From: Antedon mediterranea
Lineage: Eukaryota; Animalia; Echinodermata
DNA length: 64,000 nt
Direction of reading: 5' to 3'
Assembly (NCBI RefSeq): GCF_964355755.1
Contig: NC_092680.1
Span: 8,804,001 to 8,868,000, forward strand
The position numbers were made by a program, and so were the translations under genes. Each line of letters begins with the position of its first letter. Position 1 is the first letter of the stretch. This document shows, piece by piece, positions 1 through 15,135 of the stretch. The notes beneath the pieces are model-generated. The model saw only the letters and a list, made by a program, of their open reading frames with translations. It made no database searches and was not told where the DNA came from.

Positions 1-755
1 TAAATGGTGACTTGTATAAAGTAAAAGACATACCGATTATCAAAATGTTTAATACACAGTACAAACTTGTTGGTACCATTATAAAAACACTTGATAATGA
101 TCAACAATTACACACAGTATAATTCATTTCGATGAAACACAATTTATAAGAATAAAATAAATCATGACATACAGTAATTGCAATTTTCAAAATTTGATGA
201 ACTATTTTATTTCAAAACAAACTGTAGTGTGGCCAAACAAGTTAAACATTATAAAGAGGTGTTTAGTAGGCTTACTGAGAACCAATTTCATGGTATAAAT
301 TGGGGAATGGGCTCTTATTATACTATACCCAATATCTGGATATGCCTACTGTAAATTTAAAGGAGAGAAAACCTAATAAGATGGTTATATTGTAATGCCA
401 AAAAAGACCTTGCTGTAGCAATGGCAGACAGATTAGGTTCCGTTATGTAAGTAAGATTATATTGTAAGGTATTGTTACTGTGGTTTTTTAACGAATTGAG
501 TTGTGAAAGTGACTGACAATAGTATAGTGACCTACTAAATAGTTACTCAAAGTCAGGATACTGTGCAATACAATCACTATCTTTTAAAACTTGAACCTTT
601 GTTCAAATCACACCACCATCTTTCCTGCTGCCTCACACATGCTCATTCATTTCTAGTTAATTGTACCAGTACAAGCCACACATTTTTTTGAAACAGTATT
701 ATTCTACACAAATTCATATTAGTATTAGTGTGCAGTAAACTTGTTATAGTGTATA

Positions 756-836
756 ATGGAGAATATTATTAATAGTGAAAATGATTTGAGACAACGGCAC
801 ACAGGTCATGCCAAAGGTGAATCATCAGAAGATTCT
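756..836 (+). CDS. ADIPOR: Adiponectin receptor (PAQR family), coding exon 1 of 6
   Basis: ATG at 756, reads MENIINSENDLRQRHTGHAKGESSEDS, donor GTAAGT at 837. Phase 0 matches exon 2. Candidate upstream acceptor TTTCTAG ends at 656. The paralogous copy at 3037 begins with the same MENIIN. Confidence 0.8.
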
Positions 837-2209
837 GTAAGTATCTTACAGTAAATAGCTTTCCAGTATTTTTTATCATAAAAGTAACTTTATACAACAT
901 CTTGCATGTTATTAAGGAGCTTTATATTTAATACGATAACCTAGGAGCTAAGTCATGTTTGGTTGTTTCTATGTCCAAACAACAACGGTACATTTATGCA
1001 TACTGTAGGTCCTCATTGCTTATTTATAGCTTCTCCCTATTTAATGTTATATAAATTCTTTATTTCTGTTTTATTTCTGGTTTAATTTAGCTTTTTTGTT
1101 ATTTTATTTTTATTTCCATTGAGATCCAGCATTGTTATTTTTTTTCAGTAATTTGATTTAATACTATATTACATAGCCAAAGTAAGCCTACTGTAGGCCA
1201 AGCTTAAGAGGTAAACCTATTGTAGTATTTCACCAACTTTTAGTATTACCTTTAATACCCACCTTATACTTCGAAAATTCTATAATGAACAAAACTATCC
1301 TACTACGGTAACTGTTACAATAAACTGAAACCATTTTTGACTATTATAATGTGATTTCCTTGTATAAATATTGTGTATTTACTTTTTTAATTTTAATAAT
1401 ACACAATATCCTGAATTACTGTAAATGTAAACAAAGCGGATTTGACTCTGTTTTACTTCTGGAATCTATGGTTTACTTATTGTGTAACTAGTTGCAATAT
1501 CTTACAGTACACATGGACAGGCTAAATGATCACCAGTTATTTCCATTTGAAAATGTCTGTTCTGTGACATCATCATTTTAACCTACTGTATGTTTTTGTT
1601 CAAACAATATGGAAATATCTTATCTTATTAGGTTGTAATTCAATAGAAAAAAATGTCAAAGTCAAGCAAAGTCAAAGTCAAAACTGTTTTCTACAGTAAA
1701 CAAAATAGGATATTTCTTCACTTTATTATTACTATTAATGTTATGAAGCTATATTCACACAAGCCACGATTCATCATTAATTGCAGCTACACTGTATATA
1801 GCCAGTTTATGTTTGTTCTGTACTATACAGTAGTTTAATTTTAAGGTTGAAATATATTTTGATATAACTTTAATTTCTGGTACATACAGAGTGTTATACT
1901 TCCACCCAACCATAATCAAATAATTTTGTAGTCAATCAATTATTTTTTCACTGCAGATAAAAATTGCACAGTAAACAACCGGGTATTTTAAATTAAGCTG
2001 CCAAAAAATGGAATTGTAGGTTATTACAATGTGTAGTTGTGTGCTCCCACCAGAAACAGACCCTAACATGTCAACACTACAATATGTCTTTATATGAATC
2101 AGTCTTATCTTAGAGTCACAGTAGACCTTCAAGTACAGTATGAATTACTGTAAGGTAACTAACTATGAATATGAAATTGAGCATGATCTCACAATTGTCT
2201 TTTTTACAG

Positions 2210-2684
2210 TGTGATGATTACAACTCAGATATTGATCAAAATGAAGAATGCGACGTAGACATGATCACGTTTCCCCGACAAGCTGTCAAAGCTGGACGGG
2301 AGGCAGCAAAACGAGCAGCAGAGGCTGCAGGACGTGCTAAGGAGCGTGCATCCGAAGCAGCTGGACGTGTATCGGAATGTGCACACGAGGCTGCTGAACG
2401 TGTATCGGAGCGCGCTCACGAGGTGGCCGAACGAGCTGGTCGTATGAAGGATAAGGCGGCTGAAGCTGCAGCCAGCACGGCAGAGAATGCTAAACGTTAT
2501 GGTCGCAAGGTGAAGGAGGCTTTTGTATGGAAGGTCACACATTTCAACTTATTACCTTCATGGCTAAAAGATAATGAATTTCTTCATGATTATCATCGAC
2601 CACAACTACCATCATTTAAAGTCTGTTTTAAATCAATGTTCAGAATACACACAGAAACCGGAAATATATGGACACATCTTCTTG
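2210..2684 (+). CDS. ADIPOR: Adiponectin receptor coding exon 2 (acidic stretch, 11-mer repeats, conserved pre-TM1 region)
   Basis: Acceptor TTTTTTACAG ends 2209. Encodes WKVTHFNLLPSWLKDNEFLHDYHRPQLPSFKVCFKSMFRIHTETGNIWTHLLG, the hallmark ADIPOR1/2 motif. Donor GTAAGT at 2685, phase 1. Confidence 0.95.
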
Positions 2685-3036
2685 GTAAGTATATGATAGT
2701 TTACACCACAAGGCAAATCCTTCACGATTGCATTGTGGTATGTTTTTGCCAAAATTTCTACATTACGTAATCTCAAAGTTAGGATACTGTACTGTATCTT
2801 GTTTTGTACAAAGAATGTATGCAATCACTATCTATTGCTAGTGCTCAATATAAAAGATAAAAATGAACCTTTGTCCAAATCAATCCGATAGCAAATCACA
2901 CCACCAGCTAGCCTACTCACATGCTCATTCATTTCTAGCTGAGTGTACAAGCCACACATTTTTTTGTACAGTTTTTATTCTACAAAAGTTCATATACTTT
3001 TGAGGGACTGTAAACTGGTTAATTTAGTGTATTATA

Positions 3037-3313
3037 ATGGAGAATATTATTAATAATAAAAATGATATGCAACAACGGCACAGAGGTCATGCCGAACATC
3101 CTGCTGAAGCTGCAGCCAGCACGGCAACAAATGCTAAACGGTATGGTCACAATATATGGAAGGTCACACATTACAATTTACTACCTTCATGGCTAAGAGA
3201 TAATGAATTTCTTCATGATTATCATCGACCACAGCTACCATCATTTAAAGTTTGTTTTAAATCAATACTCAGAATACACTCAGAAACTGGAAATATATGG
3301 ACACATCTTCTTG
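3037..3313 (+). CDS. ADIPOR: Duplicated, fused exon1+exon2 copy: candidate alternative first coding exon of the adiponectin receptor
   Basis: Open frame MENIINNKNDMQQRHRGHA-EHP-AEAAASTATNAKRYGHNIWKVTH...TGNIWTHLLG. Intact GTAAGT donor at 3314 in phase 1, compatible with the exon at 5311. Flanks 2865-3036 and 3314-3379 resemble 593-755 and 2685-2763. Confidence 0.65.
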
Positions 3314-5310
3314 GTAAGTATACACGACAAAGCAAATCCTTCACTATTGTATTGGAATGTTTTGCCCCAAATGCTACATACTACAGTTTTCTTAGAAAAT
3401 ACTTTTCATAAAGGAAGCATTTACAGAGCAGCCTGATTATCTTGACAAGCTCATAAACAAGGAAAAGGAAATGCAGATGGCAATTTGTACAATCATGATA
3501 AGATCATGCTTCCTTTCCTTAGAAAAAACATTCAACATAGTCTATTTCCTGCCTGCTTACCTGGATAAACCAACAATATAGCTTCTCTCTCCGAAGAGAG
3601 GGATACAATTACGAAAAGGAAAATCCGTATATAAAATAGCACCCCTATCGGATAATGCACGCATTAAGTGTTCACCTTTTATATTCTGTACAATACATTT
3701 TTCTATTTTAGAAATACATTACTTTGTTAAGCTAAATATTAATAACTGCTATTTAATAATTAATAGAACTGTGTACAACTAAAAACAAACTTCCACTACT
3801 GCAGGAGTAGTAACAATTAGCAGGTACAATATTATTTCCAACACAACAACATTAGAATTAACAGGGACCATCATGTACAACCATCATATAAATAAAATAA
3901 CAACCAGAAAAATCCCAACTTGATATTGACATTTTCTAAGCAAACATTTAATAAGCAGTTTGTAACTCAAGTACCTGTACAATATTGAATATTAATTCTA
4001 AAAATAGTAATGTATAGTCTGGCTAAGTAGGTATAATAATAAAACCTGTTTATTACTGCATTACATATACTGTATATGGCGAAGACTCAATTACTTAGCC
4101 AACAGTATAGGTATAATGGATCATCCTGACGCAATAACCAATCATTATCCACATGTCATTTGAAACATTTATTGTTGTAGGTTTAGTACTGAATACTGAA
4201 CAATCAATGTTTGCATTTCTGTATGTTTAACAGCAGTTTTCTTCAGTAGAGATTTTTCCACACAGAAATTGCTATAAAGCATTATTCCTGCCATAGTGTA
4301 GTCATTACCTGTACACGTAAAAGAGACCCCAGCTAAAGGTGCAAAATAAAAGGCTTATATTATTATATTAATTACATACAGATTAAAAGGTGTTAAGAAT
4401 AATTTTTGATTGGATATTCCAATAGCTTGGTTTTATTTAAATCCATCACTGTATAAGGAGACCTCTTTACCACAATGTGATTAGGTCCAAACATGGATAA
4501 TGTACTCCATGGTCCAAAGTCTCTGCAAATGGTTGTCATACTTTCAATATTGTGTACAATCATTATATTGGTAGGAACTGAAGATAAAAAGTTGAATAAA
4601 AGCTGCTTAATAATTGTTTCTTTTCTTTTTTGCTTAATTGATACTTTATCTAAATGTATTTTAACTTCATTTTTACACTCACTGTACCTGCATAGTACTT
4701 GTTTGTATTGAAGTTTTACTGACCACCACCCTGTAATGAGCTCTATACTGATACATTTAATCTATGAACAACAATAATGTACCAGTATTTATAGCAATAA
4801 TAATAGCCTAGCTCATAATAGCAATAACAGTAAGACCATTTCCTGGACTAAATGCAATAATTGAATTTTAAATACCCCAATGGACTGCCCATAACAGCTG
4901 CTTCTTTCAGTATATATCATGCACAATGGTTTATTGAATTTAATTAATCAATTTCGTAATTTAACATTGCATAATTAATTGTTACTGTGATCAATATGGG
5001 TTGAGATATTAATTTCAGTCAAGGTTAGATATATATTTAGTACTTGGTCAGTTAACCATTTACTATGCATAACCATACACACGTGTTTAAATACAATTGA
5101 TATACTATCTAATGCTTGTTATAGTTATTGTTGAGAGCATGTGGATCTTAAACTGTTTAATGTATTTTTTAACCAAAAGGTACAATATTGTATTATGTGT
5201 GTATGTACATAGATTACCGTAGAACAATGGAATCATAGTGACATTTGCATGTCTGACATCCCCTGCAAGTTGGCTTGCATACTGTATAATCCATGCCTTT
5301 ATCATTACAG

Positions 5311-5494
5311 GTTGTTTAGCTTTCTTTTCACTTATGATCTACTATCTGGTGACATCAATTTTAGCAGACATCAAATGGCAGGAGATTACTGTGTATGTAG
5401 CATTCTTTATTAGTGCCATCGTTTGTATGGGATTCTCTTGGATTTTCCACACATGTTACTGCCACTCACTAGAAGCTGCCAAGTTATTTAGCAA
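5311..5494 (+). CDS. ADIPOR: Adiponectin receptor coding exon 3 (TM1-TM2)
   Basis: Acceptor ATTACAG ends 5310. Reads GCLAFFSLMIYYLV...CMGFSWIFHTCYCHSLEAAKLFSK, containing the SxxxH zinc motif. Donor GTAAGT at 5495, phase 2. Confidence 0.95.
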
Positions 5495-6887
5495 GTAAGT
5501 AAATGCTCAAGTCTTCCTCATTGCTATTGTTGTTCTTTGCTAGGTATATTTGTCATCACATTATTATTATTACAGTATTAAGAGTATTATTAATAATAAT
5601 ACTTGCCCAAGACAAATTTATCTTGGTTTTTCCTTTTGATTTTACTTTTTGGGACTTTGCCACTTTCAAAACTTAAGAAATGTATTACCATTTTTTAAGA
5701 CACTGCTTTAGATTTCCAGTCTGTTTTATTCTCATAAAATATTTGTAAATTAAAAGAAATGTTTTTTTTTTATTGTTATTTTGTTTTGAAAGAAATAAAT
5801 GTTAACTTGAATTGAATGTGACCATCGTCAACTCAACATTCATCCTTATAATTGTCCGAAACATCTGTAAATCATATCATATCATGAAGGCATAGCCAAA
5901 CAAGAGAGGCATTAAATAATTGGGGGGAAAATATATCAGACTTACTATAAAGGATTTGGATGATTTGGAAAAAAAAAAATCTCCGGCAGGAATCAGCATT
6001 TATTATAATACACCATGAATACCAGCGCAGGTGCTTTCCAGACATGGAAAAGATAGAAAAGAAAAGAAATGCATTTTTTCACCATTCGTTAAATTAAAAA
6101 ACCAAAGCCTCCTTTAGTAGAGCCTACAGTAAATAAAGTATTTATACATACAGTGTCTGGATGTTTTTTCCATATGAAAAATAATCGAGAGAAATTGCAC
6201 CTTCACAAGTACCAAAGATATTAGAAATATGCAATTATCAATATAATCGGGAGGTCTGACTTTCAATAAAACAACGTTTTTACCTTTGATAATTCAAAGC
6301 TCTCATTAGCATTTTAAATTCTACTCTTTATTTGTGAACTTCTACTTTCTTTACTCTGTTGTGGATTTATGTAATCCTACTAGGATGCAACTAATCCCTG
6401 GCTTGTTGTTCAAGCCATGCTTCTATCATTATAGTCCTTGATAGTTATCATAACAAGGCTTTTTTTTCGTAATTAAGACATAAGCTTTTAATACTAGGGC
6501 TGTTAAATCTCTCCTGCAGAGAACATAATCAAATATGTATTAGTCTATCAAATCATATCCATCTACTGTACGCAAGAAACAATGTGGAAATCCCTATTAA
6601 AAAAGGGATTGTAGAAACATCCTGATCACGTCTGTTCTGTTGAGATAAATAACTAGTTAAATTGTACATCATGACGCTCAGCAGAAAATAATTCACAAAT
6701 AATTGTTAAAACACCAAATCAGACATATTAATGCTATATACCTGGTATTGGTGATTTTTTAAACTGCAAAATACAAAAATTATCATTAGGTAACATAATG
6801 TAAAAATATGTTGGCTGAACTGAGGACACACTGATGAATTACTGCCTTATTTTTGTCCTAATTTAACATTAATTTTTATTTTAACAG

Positions 6888-7075
6888 ACTGGATTACTCA
6901 GGAATAACAGTACTCATCGTTGGATCATTTATACCATGGCTGTATTTTGGATTTTACTGTGATAATCTGAAGCGCTGCCTTTACATTGGTTTGATAGTCA
7001 TTTTAGGTCTTATCTCTGCTGTTGTTGCCTTGAGAGATAAATTTAGCACTCCTGCTTATAGGCCTATACGAGCTG
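6888..7075 (+). CDS. ADIPOR: Adiponectin receptor coding exon 4 (TM3-TM4); absent from the ORF track
   Basis: Acceptor TTTTAACAG ends 6887. Manual translation gives (K)LDYSGITVLIVGSFIPWLYFGFYCDNLKRCLYIGLIVILGLISAVVALRDKFSTPAYRPIRA. Donor GTAAGT at 7076, phase 1. Confidence 0.95.
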
Positions 7076-7192: not shown

Positions 7193-8148
7193 ATGATACA
7201 GGCATTGATTGCTTACATTCATTCAGTCAGTCAGTCAGTCAAACAAACAAAAAACACCTTACATACTCCCACATACCACATCTACTTTTGAAACTGTTAT
7301 TCAAAAATAGAAAATTGCGTTACTGCTAGTACTACTTCAATCATCTTAAAATGGAATTAAAATAGTAAGTGAAACTACAGTACTACTGAATTAATAATTG
7401 TGGTGCTTAATGCTTGCCTGCCATGGTTTCTAATCAATAATGTCTTGTGACTTATTCAGTTAAGATCGGTTTCTTCTGCATAGTGACGAATAAACCATTT
7501 ATCTCAAAATAGATTTAAAATATAATGTTTATATTGACTGCAGTTCTGCTTAATTTTTGCTCTAAATAACCGTTTAAATCAGTGGGTGGTCGTTGACAGA
7601 AATCATTAGCATTAATACCCAAAATACAGTTGATTCAAACGTTACTGCAGTGTAGTTGACTCAACTGATGTCAGTGGCTGTCAATAAAATAACCGTTATT
7701 TTGCGTTGGAGCTAAAAGTTGCACAGCAATAACCGGTTAAATGGCGTTCTAACCCTAAATAGATTGGGTGTTTTTAAGCGTTATTTTCAGGCTGCCATTT
7801 AACCGATTGCTGAAAATTTGTCCTGTTTCTGCTGCCAAGAAATTGGGGTTAGTTTATTCACACAGTTAATAACTGGTTATTTTTTCGAATCAGAAATATG
7901 ACCTTAGAAACATTTGTGCTCAAAGAAAATTAAGACTTTGCTATTCAAATTGTCAGCACTAAATATTGCATACTACTACAAATCTAAATTAATGAACAGA
8001 TTGTAAGTTGATTATGGCTTCACACTCAACAAGTACACACTTTAATCAGCTTCAAATTACACATCCATAATAATCATGTACGTAATCAATTGTACATTTA
8101 TGTAAATTTATGCACATACATAATGTTGTGTATTGTTGTTCTCCACAG

Positions 8149-8342
8149 CCGTATTCATAACGCTTGGTTTAAGCGCCATAATACCAGCTATTCATTTTGT
8201 CATTCTGAATGGCTTCACCTTAGCCTTACAGGCCGGATCACTGCAATGGATGGTCTTAATGGGTTCGCTATACATTGGTGGCGCTGTTTTATATGCAGCT
8301 AGGATTCCAGAAAGACTATTTCCTGGAAAATGTGATATATGG
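8149..8342 (+). CDS. ADIPOR: Adiponectin receptor coding exon 5 (TM5-TM6)
   Basis: Acceptor CTCCACAG ends 8148. Reads AVFITLGLSAIIPAIHF...LYAARIPERLFPGKCDIW. Donor GTCAGT at 8343, phase 0. Confidence 0.95.
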
Positions 8343-8654: not shown

Positions 8655-8825
8655 TTCCAAAGTCATCAGATATTTCATATAATGGTAATAGCAGCAGCGT
8701 TTGTACATTATCATGGACTCAACCTCATGGCAAAGTATCGCGAACGAGTGGGTGAATGTGATGCTGGCCTACAAGTAGACACTGAAACAATATTTATGAC
8801 AACGTTGACACAAACTGTAATGTAA
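8655..8825 (+). CDS. ADIPOR: Adiponectin receptor last coding exon (TM7, HxxxH zinc motif, stop)
   Basis: Acceptor TTTCTTTACAG ends 8654. Reads FQSHQIFHIMVIAAAFVHYHG...QTVM then TAA. The six exons sum to 1293 nt, i.e. 430 aa plus stop. Confidence 0.93.
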   Translation, partial: FQSHQIFHIMVIAAAFVHYHGLNLMAKYRERVGECDAGLQVDTETIFMTTLTQTVM

Positions 8826-11936: not shown

Positions 11937-12355
11937 TAAAATTAGTACTACAGTACTATACTTAAAATGGCACAGTACAGGAGAACAGAATAATAATAGT
12001 AGTATGCTACCCAACAAATGAAATGTCCCCAATATGGCTACTCAAATGAGTGTTGAACCCAAAAATGACAATGAAAAAATGTGTTTACTGTTATTTATTT
12101 ATTTAATCACACCCAGCAATTCTGGCTTATGAGTTAATGTACCATATGCTAATATATTGTAACGAAAATCCGTTCTCGGGTTCGTTCCCTTTTGGGGGGA
12201 GGGGTCTGCGGTACCACGGTACACTCGAATGAAACAAACAAATCAATTACAATTTCTGGAGTGACCTCCTTTATTCTTCTTTGATTCAAAATTATTGGTA
12301 ACAACCAATTAAAATAATTAATTAGATTAGTTCTGCTATTACGCCGGACTTGAAA

Positions 12356-12700
12356 CAACAGCGTAACCACCAGTAATGACGTAACCTCTAATAGTAGCGT
12401 AACCACCAACAACAGCGTAACCTCAAACATCACGTAACCACCAACAGGGGTGTAACCTCCACAGCAACGTAACCACCAACAATGGCGTAACCTTCACAGC
12501 AACGTAACCACACACAATGGTGTAACCTCCAACAATGGTGTAACCTCCACAGCAACATAACCACCAACAATGGCGTAACCTCCACAGCAACGTAACCACC
12601 AACAATGGTGTAACCTCCACAGCAACGTAACCACCAACAATGGCGTAACCACGTACCGGCTAACAGGGTAACCACCAGTAGTCTTAACCACTGGCTACCA
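12356..12700. repeat. Minisatellite, 35-bp unit made of 17/18-bp GTAACC subunits
   Basis: Unit GCGTAACCTCCACAGCAACGTAACCACCAACAATG; TAACCTCC recurs at 12541, 12576, 12611. Confidence 0.9.
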
Positions 12701-12827: not shown

Positions 12828-13554
12828 GTTATGCGCGATTTGAACGATTTGCGCAATTTAAAATTGCGCAAAGAATTCTTGCGCAATATTAAATTGCGCA
12901 ATTTCAAATTGCGCAAGAAAATCCTTGCGCAATTTCAAATTGCGCTGCACAATTTTTAAATTGCGCAAGATAGTTCTTGCGCAATATGACACCTTTGCGC
13001 AATTTGAAAACGAACTGTTTGTTATTTTTATTATTGTACTCATTTGTTGTTGAGAATGGTACCGAAAGGTCGATCTTTTTTGTCATTAAATTTAATTTTT
13101 AAGTTAAATAGTAAACGTCTAATAATTCGTAATAATTATTGTTTCTAAAAAAAATCCAATCGTTATAAGTCTTATTAATCGTCATTAGTACTGATATTTG
13201 AATTGAAATTATTATATTACTATTGGTATTTATTTATGCCTTCTCCTCATATTATGTGAGAATATGGTATTTTATAGAACCATTGGGAATTCGAGATTTT
13301 TTTTATTCGGAAAAAAAAATCTTCAATTTTGAATCATTCTTAGAAATTACTAAAAAAATATGGGTGTGCATGATTTCACAATCTGTCGAAAAACCTTGCG
13401 CAATTTGCAGATTACTTGCGCAATTTAATACGTTGCTTGCGCAATTTGAAACACATGTTTCAATTCAAATTGCGCAAGGAATTTTTTGCGCAATTTAAAA
13501 TTGCGCAAGAAAATCCTTGCGCAATTTCAAATTGCGCAAATCGCGCATAACACC
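12828..13554 (+). mobile_element. Non-autonomous TIR element rich in TTGCGCAA palindromes, copy 1 (AT-rich core variant)
   Basis: Ends GTTATGCGCGATTTG...CAAATCGCGCATAACACC, flanked by GAT on both sides (12825-27, 13555-57). Arms are shared with the copies at 14334 and 37371. It interrupts a local TAGGTGCAACCTCCGGCTCA tandem repeat. Confidence 0.9.
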
Positions 13555-13772: not shown

Positions 13773-13961
13773 CTCCAATCTCTCCCTTCTTTTTAACGCA
13801 GCTCGAGGTAACCCTCCATTGCCTTCCTTCTCCAATCCCTCTCTGCTTTTTAACGCAGCTCGAGGTAACCCTCCATTGCCTTCCTTCTCCAATCCCTCTC
13901 TCCTTTTTAACGCAGCTCGAGGTAACCCTCCATTGCCTTCCTTCTCCAATCCCTCTCTGCT
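13773..13961. repeat. 57-bp tandem repeat, about 3.3 copies
   Basis: CTCCAATC recurs at 13773, 13830, 13887, 13944. Confidence 0.9.
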
Positions 13962-14333
13962 CTTTTTCTCACGTCCGTTCTCTGCTACTCTTCCTGCCTA
14001 ACTTTCTGGTCTGGATTGGTTTTAATGCAGTGTTTTTTTTTTATTTGAGCCATAACATTTTCCATAAAGACTATTAAGAAGGGTGCTTTTCTGTGCTTTC
14101 TTTTATAGCCTGGTGTTGCTACAAAATTGTCTACACCCACCCTCTACTACTACTAGCCTATCATATGATACTATTACTAGTGAGTATTTACTCTTAATAA
14201 CATTTGATTGCAGTTTTTTATGTAAGTCACGGTATTAGAATAGTAATTATTTATGATTAAACTCTGTAAAACATCACACTGGCCAAAGCTTCTGTTTGCC
14301 TAACAATATATAAGGCCTGGCTGTAATATAAAT

Positions 14334-15135
14334 GTTATGCGCGATTTGAACGATTTGCGCAATTTGAAATTGCGCAAAAAAATCCTTGCGCAATTTTAAA
14401 TTGCGCAAGAATTATTTGCGCAATTTCAAATTGCGCAAGGATTTTTTTGCGCAATTTCAAATTGCGCAATCAACTTGCGCAATTTCAAATTGCGCAAGAA
14501 AATCTTTGCGCAATTTTAAATTGCGCTGCACAATTTGTAAATTGCGCAAGATAGTTCTTGCGCAATATGACACCTTTGCGCAATTTGAAAACGAACTGTA
14601 AATTTTCCCATACATGGCTATAGGCTAGGCCTAGGCAGAGGAGTTTAAAATTTAGTATTTTATTATATAAATAAGACCATTTCAATGAAGATAATGTTTA
14701 ATACTCACTTTTTAAGTTTTTAATATTAGTTTAAGCTAGGCCATGTAACCTAGTCAGTATCAGTAGTCCAGACCCTAGCTAGGCTAGAGTAGTATAGCCG
14801 GCCGCCCGCGCCGCGCCCGCCTGGTGGAACACCACCGCTTCGTTTTCCTTCGTCGGTTCTTCGACGGTATGCTAACTTATAACAATATTTGCACTACTAA
14901 AATAAGGAAATGCGATATTTATCTTTAAATTTGAATCATTCTTAGAAATTACTATAAAAATATGGGTGTACATGATTTCACAATCTGTCGAAAAACCTTG
15001 CGCAATTTGCAGATTACTTGCGCAATTTAATACGTTGCTTGCGCAATTTGAAACACATGTTTCAATTCAAATTGCGCAAGGATTTTTTTTGCGCAATTTC
15101 AAATTGCGCAAATCGTTCAAATCGCGCATAACATC
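14334..15135 (+). mobile_element. TTGCGCAA-rich TIR element, copy 2
   Basis: GTTATGCGCGATTTGAACGATTTGCGCAATTT...AAATCGTTCAAATCGCGCATAACATC, flanked by AAT/AAT. About 20 TTGCGCAA octamers counted by eye. Confidence 0.92.

What the first reader, a model, noticed from the sequence alone, without database searches (positions are those of the whole stretch)
2865..3379. Intragenic duplication built a fused in-frame alternative first exon for the adiponectin receptor, lacking the repeat domain
Seen: 2865-3379 is a diverged copy of 593-2763. It keeps the upstream acceptor (CTCATTCATTTCTAG ending 656 vs 2938), the ATG and the exon-2 GTAAGT donor. Intronic flanks are present, so this is a DNA-level duplication, not a retrocopy. 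Three deletions all preserve frame: exon-1 CATGCC joins exon-2 GCCGAAC (2426) over a GCC microhomology, removing intron 1 and most of the repeats, followed by 21-nt and 15-nt deletions. In the conserved V/IWKVTH...THLLG block I count 5 synonymous and 6 conservative changes (V/I, F/Y, K/R, M/I, F/L, T/S) and no stops. Inference: one locus may make a 430-aa repeat-bearing and a 337-aa repeat-less receptor by alternative acceptor choice.
Basis: partly seen in the sequence, partly recalled or inferred. Interest (0 to 1): 0.78.

Follow-up and report, generated by a model that had tools for sequence, protein, structure and literature searches.

The report
Duplicated, shortened adiponectin-receptor first exon
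A feather star's adiponectin-receptor gene carries a tandem copy of its own front end, collapsed by in-frame deletions into one open exon that shows signs of past protein-level selection and would give a receptor without its long amphipathic helix, but the one RNA set available splices around it, so it is likely a minor isoform or a relic.

Summary
The duplication is real: about 546-2765 (copy A) is followed head to tail by about 2772-3379 (copy B), and four public runs hold it. B fuses the proximal first coding exon to the end of exon 2 in frame, keeps ATG and donor, and would give 337 aa instead of 430. The gene is the AdipoR of Antedon mediterranea; named proteins are 529 and 430 aa only, from two first exons shared with Anneissia. 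Selection on B is mixed: pairwise dN/dS 0.52 fits a neutral B, yet its six core changes are more conservative than chance (P about 0.001-0.002) and it has no frameshift where 2-4.5 were expected. In the only RNA run, contigs join 836>2210 and 2684>5311, skipping B; no 3313>5311 joint is listed. 'Alternative acceptor choice' is unsupported: an RNA contig runs unspliced through 656/657 and the coding distal exon would meet stops. Best reading (0.42): a third, restricted first exon under relaxed selection; relic 0.33. Known kind of event, unannotated instance, expression unproven.

The parts
546..2765 (+). Copy A of the duplicated unit: proximal first exon region, intron, exon 2, start of next intron
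   Evidence: alignments
756..836 (+). Coding part of the proximal first exon (start of the 430-aa isoform); donor after 836
   Evidence: RNA joint 836>2210 in X1; P0001 begins here
2210..2684 (+). Exon 2, shared by the 529- and 430-aa isoforms; encodes the 11-mer helix and start of the PAQR core
   Evidence: X1 contig 2210-2686 and joint to 5310/5311; tblastn of P0063
2321..2433 (+). 33-nt tandem repeats within the 84-residue amphipathic helix (residues 50-133 of P0001), most of it lost in copy B
2772..3379 (+). Copy B: tandem duplicate with internal deletions
   Evidence: DNA contigs
2772..3036 (+). Copied upstream region (candidate start region or acceptor; AG at 2938 and 2971; 46-codon upstream ORF from 2863)
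   Evidence: function not shown
3037..3313 (+). Open fused coding exon (92 codons + 1 base), ATG to GTAAGT donor
3091..3105 (+). Fusion zone joining the first-exon part to the end of exon 2; one or two deletion events
3148..3156 (+). Site of the 15-nt in-frame deletion
   Evidence: alignment
5311..5494 (+). Common exon 3
6888..7075 (+). Common exon 4
8149..8342 (+). Common exon 5
8655..8825 (+). Last coding exon with stop

Best explanation
Copy B is a tandem duplicate of the gene's proximal first exon plus exon 2, fused in frame by deletion, and likely serves as a third, low-level or tissue-restricted first exon that would splice 3313>5311 to give a 337-aa receptor lacking most of the 11-mer amphipathic helix. 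Shown: duplication, open frame, intact ATG and donor, two other first exons in use. Inferred: transcription starts in or near the copied upstream region; the protein was under relaxed purifying selection; loss of the helix and acidic stretch would change regulation or localisation while the seven-helix core stays the same.
For: Six core changes are far more conservative than random single-base missense changes (BLOSUM P 0.0008-0.0013, Grantham P about 0.002 under four mutation models; still P 0.005-0.009 without the change at the deletion edge). All six are on the B branch, since A equals Anneissia at each; none hits the 15 invariant columns of 53; 4 of 6 new residues occur in homologs (P 0.048). 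No frameshift in 264 aligned coding bases, whereas 9 of 13 flank indels shift frame: 2.25-4.5 expected, P 0.1-0.01. Flank divergence 0.155 (41 of 264) against about 1% or less between alleles (3 of 477, 6 of 2391) makes B old enough to have decayed. The gene already uses two first exons in two crinoids, and an X1 contig runs unspliced through 656/657, as expected of a first exon.
Against: In RNA run X1 a contig joins exon 2 straight to exon 3 across B, and only 2 joints are listed, neither from 3313. No 337-aa protein in the cluster (2 of 2 members are 529 and 430 aa) or among 13 of 31 and 6 of 6 candidates scored. Pairwise dN/dS 0.52 overall (14.5 N, 7.5 S; bootstrap 0.22-1.44) and 0.31 in the core (0.07-1.49) cannot be told from a neutral B beside a frozen A (14.5 seen, 17.0 expected, P 0.28; core 6 seen, 10.2 expected, P 0.11). 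F>L hits a column with F in 59 of 62 homologs and L in 0 of 62. No promoter was shown; if the start lies upstream of 546 it was not copied, and a 46-codon upstream ORF from 2863 would precede the ATG.
Confidence: 0.42

Rival explanations
1. Relic: B was translated for part of its history (perhaps as an intact two-exon duplicate before the large deletion) and is now silent or nearly so, spliced out with the intron.
For: Explains both the conservative changes and the joint across B with no B joint or protein. F>L at a near-invariant column. A single final deletion is in frame one time in three.
Against: Two or three deletions all keep frame, and ATG, donor and frame are intact in the window; silence rests on one run kept as contigs, which drop rare variants.
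Confidence: 0.33
2. One reading: a non-coding upstream exon chooses between acceptors at 656 and 2938 (or 2971), giving 430 or 337 aa.
For: Both AGs have pyrimidine tracts like the gene's real acceptors (0.71). Two accessions encode the same 529-aa protein in both crinoids, so untranslated variants exist and could include an upstream exon.
Against: X1 contig crosses 656/657 unbroken; none of the 6 of 7 loose ends shown lies at 657 or 2939. The 21-nt identical run is chance-level. The known distal exon is coding and would meet stops.
Confidence: 0.12
3. Never-functional pseudo-exon: B has drifted neutrally since duplication and stayed open by luck, perhaps helped by gene conversion from A.
For: Substitution counts fit neutrality; no stop has probability 0.41-0.63; 32-36-nt identical tracts could be conversion tracts.
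Against: Conservative bias P about 0.001 and absence of frameshifts; conversion would not make the remaining changes conservative.
Confidence: 0.1
4. Poison exon: B is sometimes included after exon 2 through the AG at 2938 or 2971 and triggers nonsense-mediated decay.
For: B has exon size, candidate acceptors and a consensus donor; phase-1 entry at 2939 stops after 21 codons.
Against: No such joint listed; does not explain protein-level conservation in the ATG frame.
Confidence: 0.03

Closest known systems
Tandem variable first exons spliced to common exons (UGT1A, clustered protocadherins; PMC3325998, PMC1885805, start of abstracts in search listing)
   Same: Tandem duplicate of a first-exon unit placed upstream of shared downstream exons, giving a different N-terminus on one C-terminal core.
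   Different: One extra copy, not an array; the unit held two exons and an intron and was collapsed into one exon by genomic deletion; own promoter and splicing not shown.
AdipoR / PAQR class with regulatory N-terminal region (C. elegans PAQR-1/2; PMC7428288, passages read)
   Same: Core matches human AdipoR1/2 chains (E 1.6e-20) and Pfam HlyIII. The paper argues that the divergent N-terminus is regulatory and lists truncations as an untested experiment.
   Different: The crinoid N-terminus has an 84-99-residue 11-mer amphipathic helix (36 residues in two sea-cucumber-type proteins); B would be a natural truncation retaining the membrane-proximal region.
Pseudo-exons left by intragenic duplication (general knowledge, recalled)
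   Same: Intronic copy of exons skipped by the main transcript.
   Different: B has no stop or frameshift and its changes are biased to conservative ones.

Membership tests
AdipoR/PAQR (host gene) | HlyIII/PAQR transmembrane domain | tested here: met
   PF03006 above cut-off in exons 3 and 5; P0001 carries PF03006
AdipoR/PAQR (host gene) | Conserved pre-TM1 motif HxETxNIWTH kept in copy B | tested here: met
   B keeps all 15 invariant columns of alignment A1; T>S is seen in 6 of 62 homologs
AdipoR/PAQR (host gene) | F(X)3F(X)3F segment (recalled as a transport motif of human AdipoR1; only the title of Juhl 2012 seen) | tested here: not met
   Third F is L in B; F in 59 of 62 homologs, L in none
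Variable first exon | Tandem duplicate upstream of common exons with in-frame donor | tested here: met
Variable first exon | Spliced to the common exons in RNA | tested here: inconclusive
   No 3313>5311 joint in the one RNA run; contigs drop rare variants
Variable first exon | Own promoter / start site | not testable with these tools
   Contigs cannot show starts; an initiator-like hexamer at 643/2925 is common (24 in 9 kb)
Variable first exon | Purifying selection on the product | tested here: inconclusive
   Rate fits neutral B; kind of change and indel frame favour selection
Alternative acceptor pair | Upstream exon spliced to 657 or 2939 | tested here: inconclusive
   Contig unbroken through 657, no such joint or shown loose end in one run
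Retrocopy | Precise intron loss, no intronic flanks | tested here: not met
   Junction is not at 836/2210 and intronic flanks are copied

The most novel reading that the evidence does not exclude
A feather star has evolved, by duplication and exon-fusing deletion, a natural AdipoR isoform with its own start site that drops an 84-residue 11-mer amphipathic helix acting as a membrane-packing sensor, so one gene makes both a lipid-sensing and a sensor-less, differently regulated receptor.
Probability: 0.2. Interest if true: 0.65.

Novelty: new variant of a known kind. Interest (0 to 1): 0.38.

Why it matters
If expressed, it is a recent, fully readable case of a new first exon built by duplication plus fusion, and a natural version of the N-terminal truncation that PAQR workers list as an open experiment (PMC7428288, passages). 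It would also point at the crinoid 11-mer helix as a candidate regulatory element. If silent, it is an ordinary intronic relic whose main lesson is that dN/dS near 0.5 between an exon and its copy is what a neutral copy gives.

Tried and rejected
No whole genome is held and no eukaryote genome collection is offered, so orthologous copies in relatives were not examined. The run search listed no holder on record as RNA; X1 was judged RNA from its GT..AG joints at exon edges. Cover of B in X1: bins over 2832-3503 read 0, 2.15, 1.82, 1.56; arithmetic fits two short contigs of depth about 2.6 and 3.5, one reading through the 3313 donor, like intron contigs at 3.3-6.85; contig depth cannot rank parts of a gene, so this is not counted as evidence. 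Assembly artefact and retrocopy rejected. Single-sequence fold of P0001 was poor (mean pLDDT 48.9); only the long helix 50-139 was moderately confident in part. Weak Pfam matches of the repeats to apolipoprotein-like families were all below cut-off. Earlier findings: nothing by place or words. Literature: 'adiponectin receptor' + 'crinoid' gave 0 papers; searches gave no direct precedent in the listings seen; Tanabe 2015 was not held. Supplements were not consulted, and most subscription papers are outside the library.

Full report
Observation. Blastn of 2780-3500 against the window finds one other copy, in two pieces: 604-815 (78%) and 2459-2763 (83%). Wider alignment shows homology from about 546 in A and 2772 in B, so B begins within a few bases of where A ends: a head-to-tail tandem duplication. 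B keeps the ATG (3037) and the GTAAGT donor (after 3313). Splicing it to the four downstream exons gives an open 337-aa model; the A route gives 430 aa (that script set the first junction one base off, the RNA joint 836>2210 gives the residue seen in P0001). The fusion joins GCC at 810-812 to exon 2 at a codon start. The nine bases after it fit more than one source in A, so there are two or three deletions, net in frame. Three DNA runs (one sample by the tool's coding) hold contigs over 2756-3227 and from 3293 into unique DNA; an X1 contig with differences at 2695-2755 spans about 2663-2790, across the A/B junction (inferred table 3). The feature is real.

The gene. Exon 2 matches P0001 at 100%, named adiponectin receptor-like isoform X2 of Antedon mediterranea, 430 aa. 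Its cluster has 2 members, 430 and 529 aa; the Anneissia japonica cluster likewise has 441 and 533 aa. The long forms differ only before exon 2, and that exon is not in the window. In X1 a loose end of at least 255 letters enters at 2210 and matches the end of that exon when translated. So the locus already has a distal and a proximal first coding exon in two crinoids; B would be a third. Searches with the B frame returned no B-type protein: 13 hits of 31 candidates at 162-2000 aa, 6 of 6 at 50-161 aa.

RNA. One run, X1, is RNA by its GT..AG joints. Over 480-5490 it lists two joints: 836>2210 (depth 10.5) and 2683/4>5310/1 (depth 39.4, placed by the tool on copy A, 27 letters on the short side). 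The second crosses B as intron. The exon-2 contig is unbroken across the 36-nt stretch identical in A and B, where DNA contigs stop at 2598. No 3313 joint is listed. Contigs drop rare variants and this is one sample, so B is not in the dominant transcript there, and no more can be said. A contig laid on 546-836 crosses 656/657 without a joint, and none of the 6 of 7 loose ends shown lies at 657 or 2939.

Acceptor or start site. The identical 21-nt run around the proposed acceptor is what 15% divergence gives (P 0.32). A phase-0 coding exon spliced to 657 or 2939 stops after 21 or 24 codons, so only a non-coding upstream exon could work that way. That is not excluded, since two accessions encode the same long protein. 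With the unspliced contig, a separate start is likelier, but no promoter was shown: the initiator-like hexamer (consensus recalled) occurs 24 times in 9 kb.

Selection. Over 88 aligned codons there are 14.5 non-synonymous and 7.5 synonymous differences, dN/dS 0.52 (0.22-1.44); core 0.31 (0.07-1.49); flanks differ at 41 of 264 sites. With A frozen and B neutral one expects about 0.5, and the counts fit (P 0.28 overall, 0.11 core). All six core changes fall on B: A differs from Anneissia at 2 of 53 positions, B at 8. So B evolves fast. But the kind of change is not random: BLOSUM sum 10 and mean Grantham 28 against about 75 expected, P 0.001-0.002 under four mutation models; in the 62 homologs counted (alignment of 65 rows less B, A's exon and P0001) four of six new residues occur and no invariant column is hit. 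Nine of 13 flank indels shift frame, predicting 2.25-4.5 frameshifts in B's coding part against none (P 0.1-0.01; the indel list is my reading). Absence of stops alone is weak (0.41-0.63). Against function, F>L hits a column that is F in 59 of 62 and L in none; I recall this F as the third of a transport motif in human AdipoR1, but saw only that paper's title. Net: B was probably translated under relaxed purifying selection for much of its life; the data cannot date the large deletion or say whether selection continues.

What the product would be. Residues 50-133 of the 430-aa form are an amphipathic helix with peak periodicity 99 degrees and 41% identity at lag 11 (0 of 5000 shuffles reached the moment); a poor single-sequence model also draws one long helix there. 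Anneissia has 99 such residues, P0069 (sea cucumber) and P0003 have 36. B keeps residues 1-19, about 111-127 and 133 onward, and its core aligns with human AdipoR1/2 chains from the start of their conserved region. PMC7428288 (passages) argues that divergent PAQR N-termini are regulatory and names truncations as a future test. That the crinoid helix senses membranes is inference from its pattern only.

Comparison and verdict. It works like the variable first exons of UGT1A and protocadherin clusters (abstract starts in listing), but the two defining features, own promoter and splicing to common exons, are untested or inconclusive, so I do not file it as a member. The twist is the collapse of two exons and an intron into one exon. 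No paper on crinoid adiponectin receptors was found. Odds: restricted third first exon 0.42, relic 0.33, acceptor choice 0.12, never functional 0.10, poison exon 0.03. Interest 0.38.

Noticed in passing
window 546-552: Run X1 shows a 29-letter near-palindrome inserted with a 7-base repeat of 546-552, exactly at the left edge of the duplicated unit (tables 5c and 8); may be an allele with a transposon-like footprint or a library artefact.
   Followed up: partly
window 2762-2771: A perfect 10-base palindrome sits at the junction between copy A and copy B.
   Followed up: no
upstream of window position 1, joining at 2210: Distal coding first exon of the 529-aa isoform lies outside the window; seen as a loose end in X1.
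   Followed up: yes
window 2276-2527: Crinoid AdipoR has an expanded 11-mer amphipathic helix (84 and 99 residues versus 36 in two sea-cucumber-type proteins); P0006 has a different repeat in the same place.
   Followed up: partly
window 2756-3227: The X4 contig differs by 2 substitutions (2865, 3005) and 8 gap letters whose places were not listed; they could fall in B's coding part.
   Followed up: no
window 2863-3003 and 2958-2971: Copy B has gained a 46-codon upstream ORF and an acceptor-like pyrimidine tract plus ACAG at 2971.
   Followed up: partly
window 808-1415, 3544-3847, 5368-5975, 7496-8103: High-depth bins in all DNA runs, likely interspersed repeats in the introns.
   Followed up: no
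window 12353-12652, 12849-12987, 13467-13539, 13773-13967, 14353-14547: Tandem arrays downstream of the gene: 35/88-nt, 15/31-nt palindrome-rich and 57-nt units.
   Followed up: no
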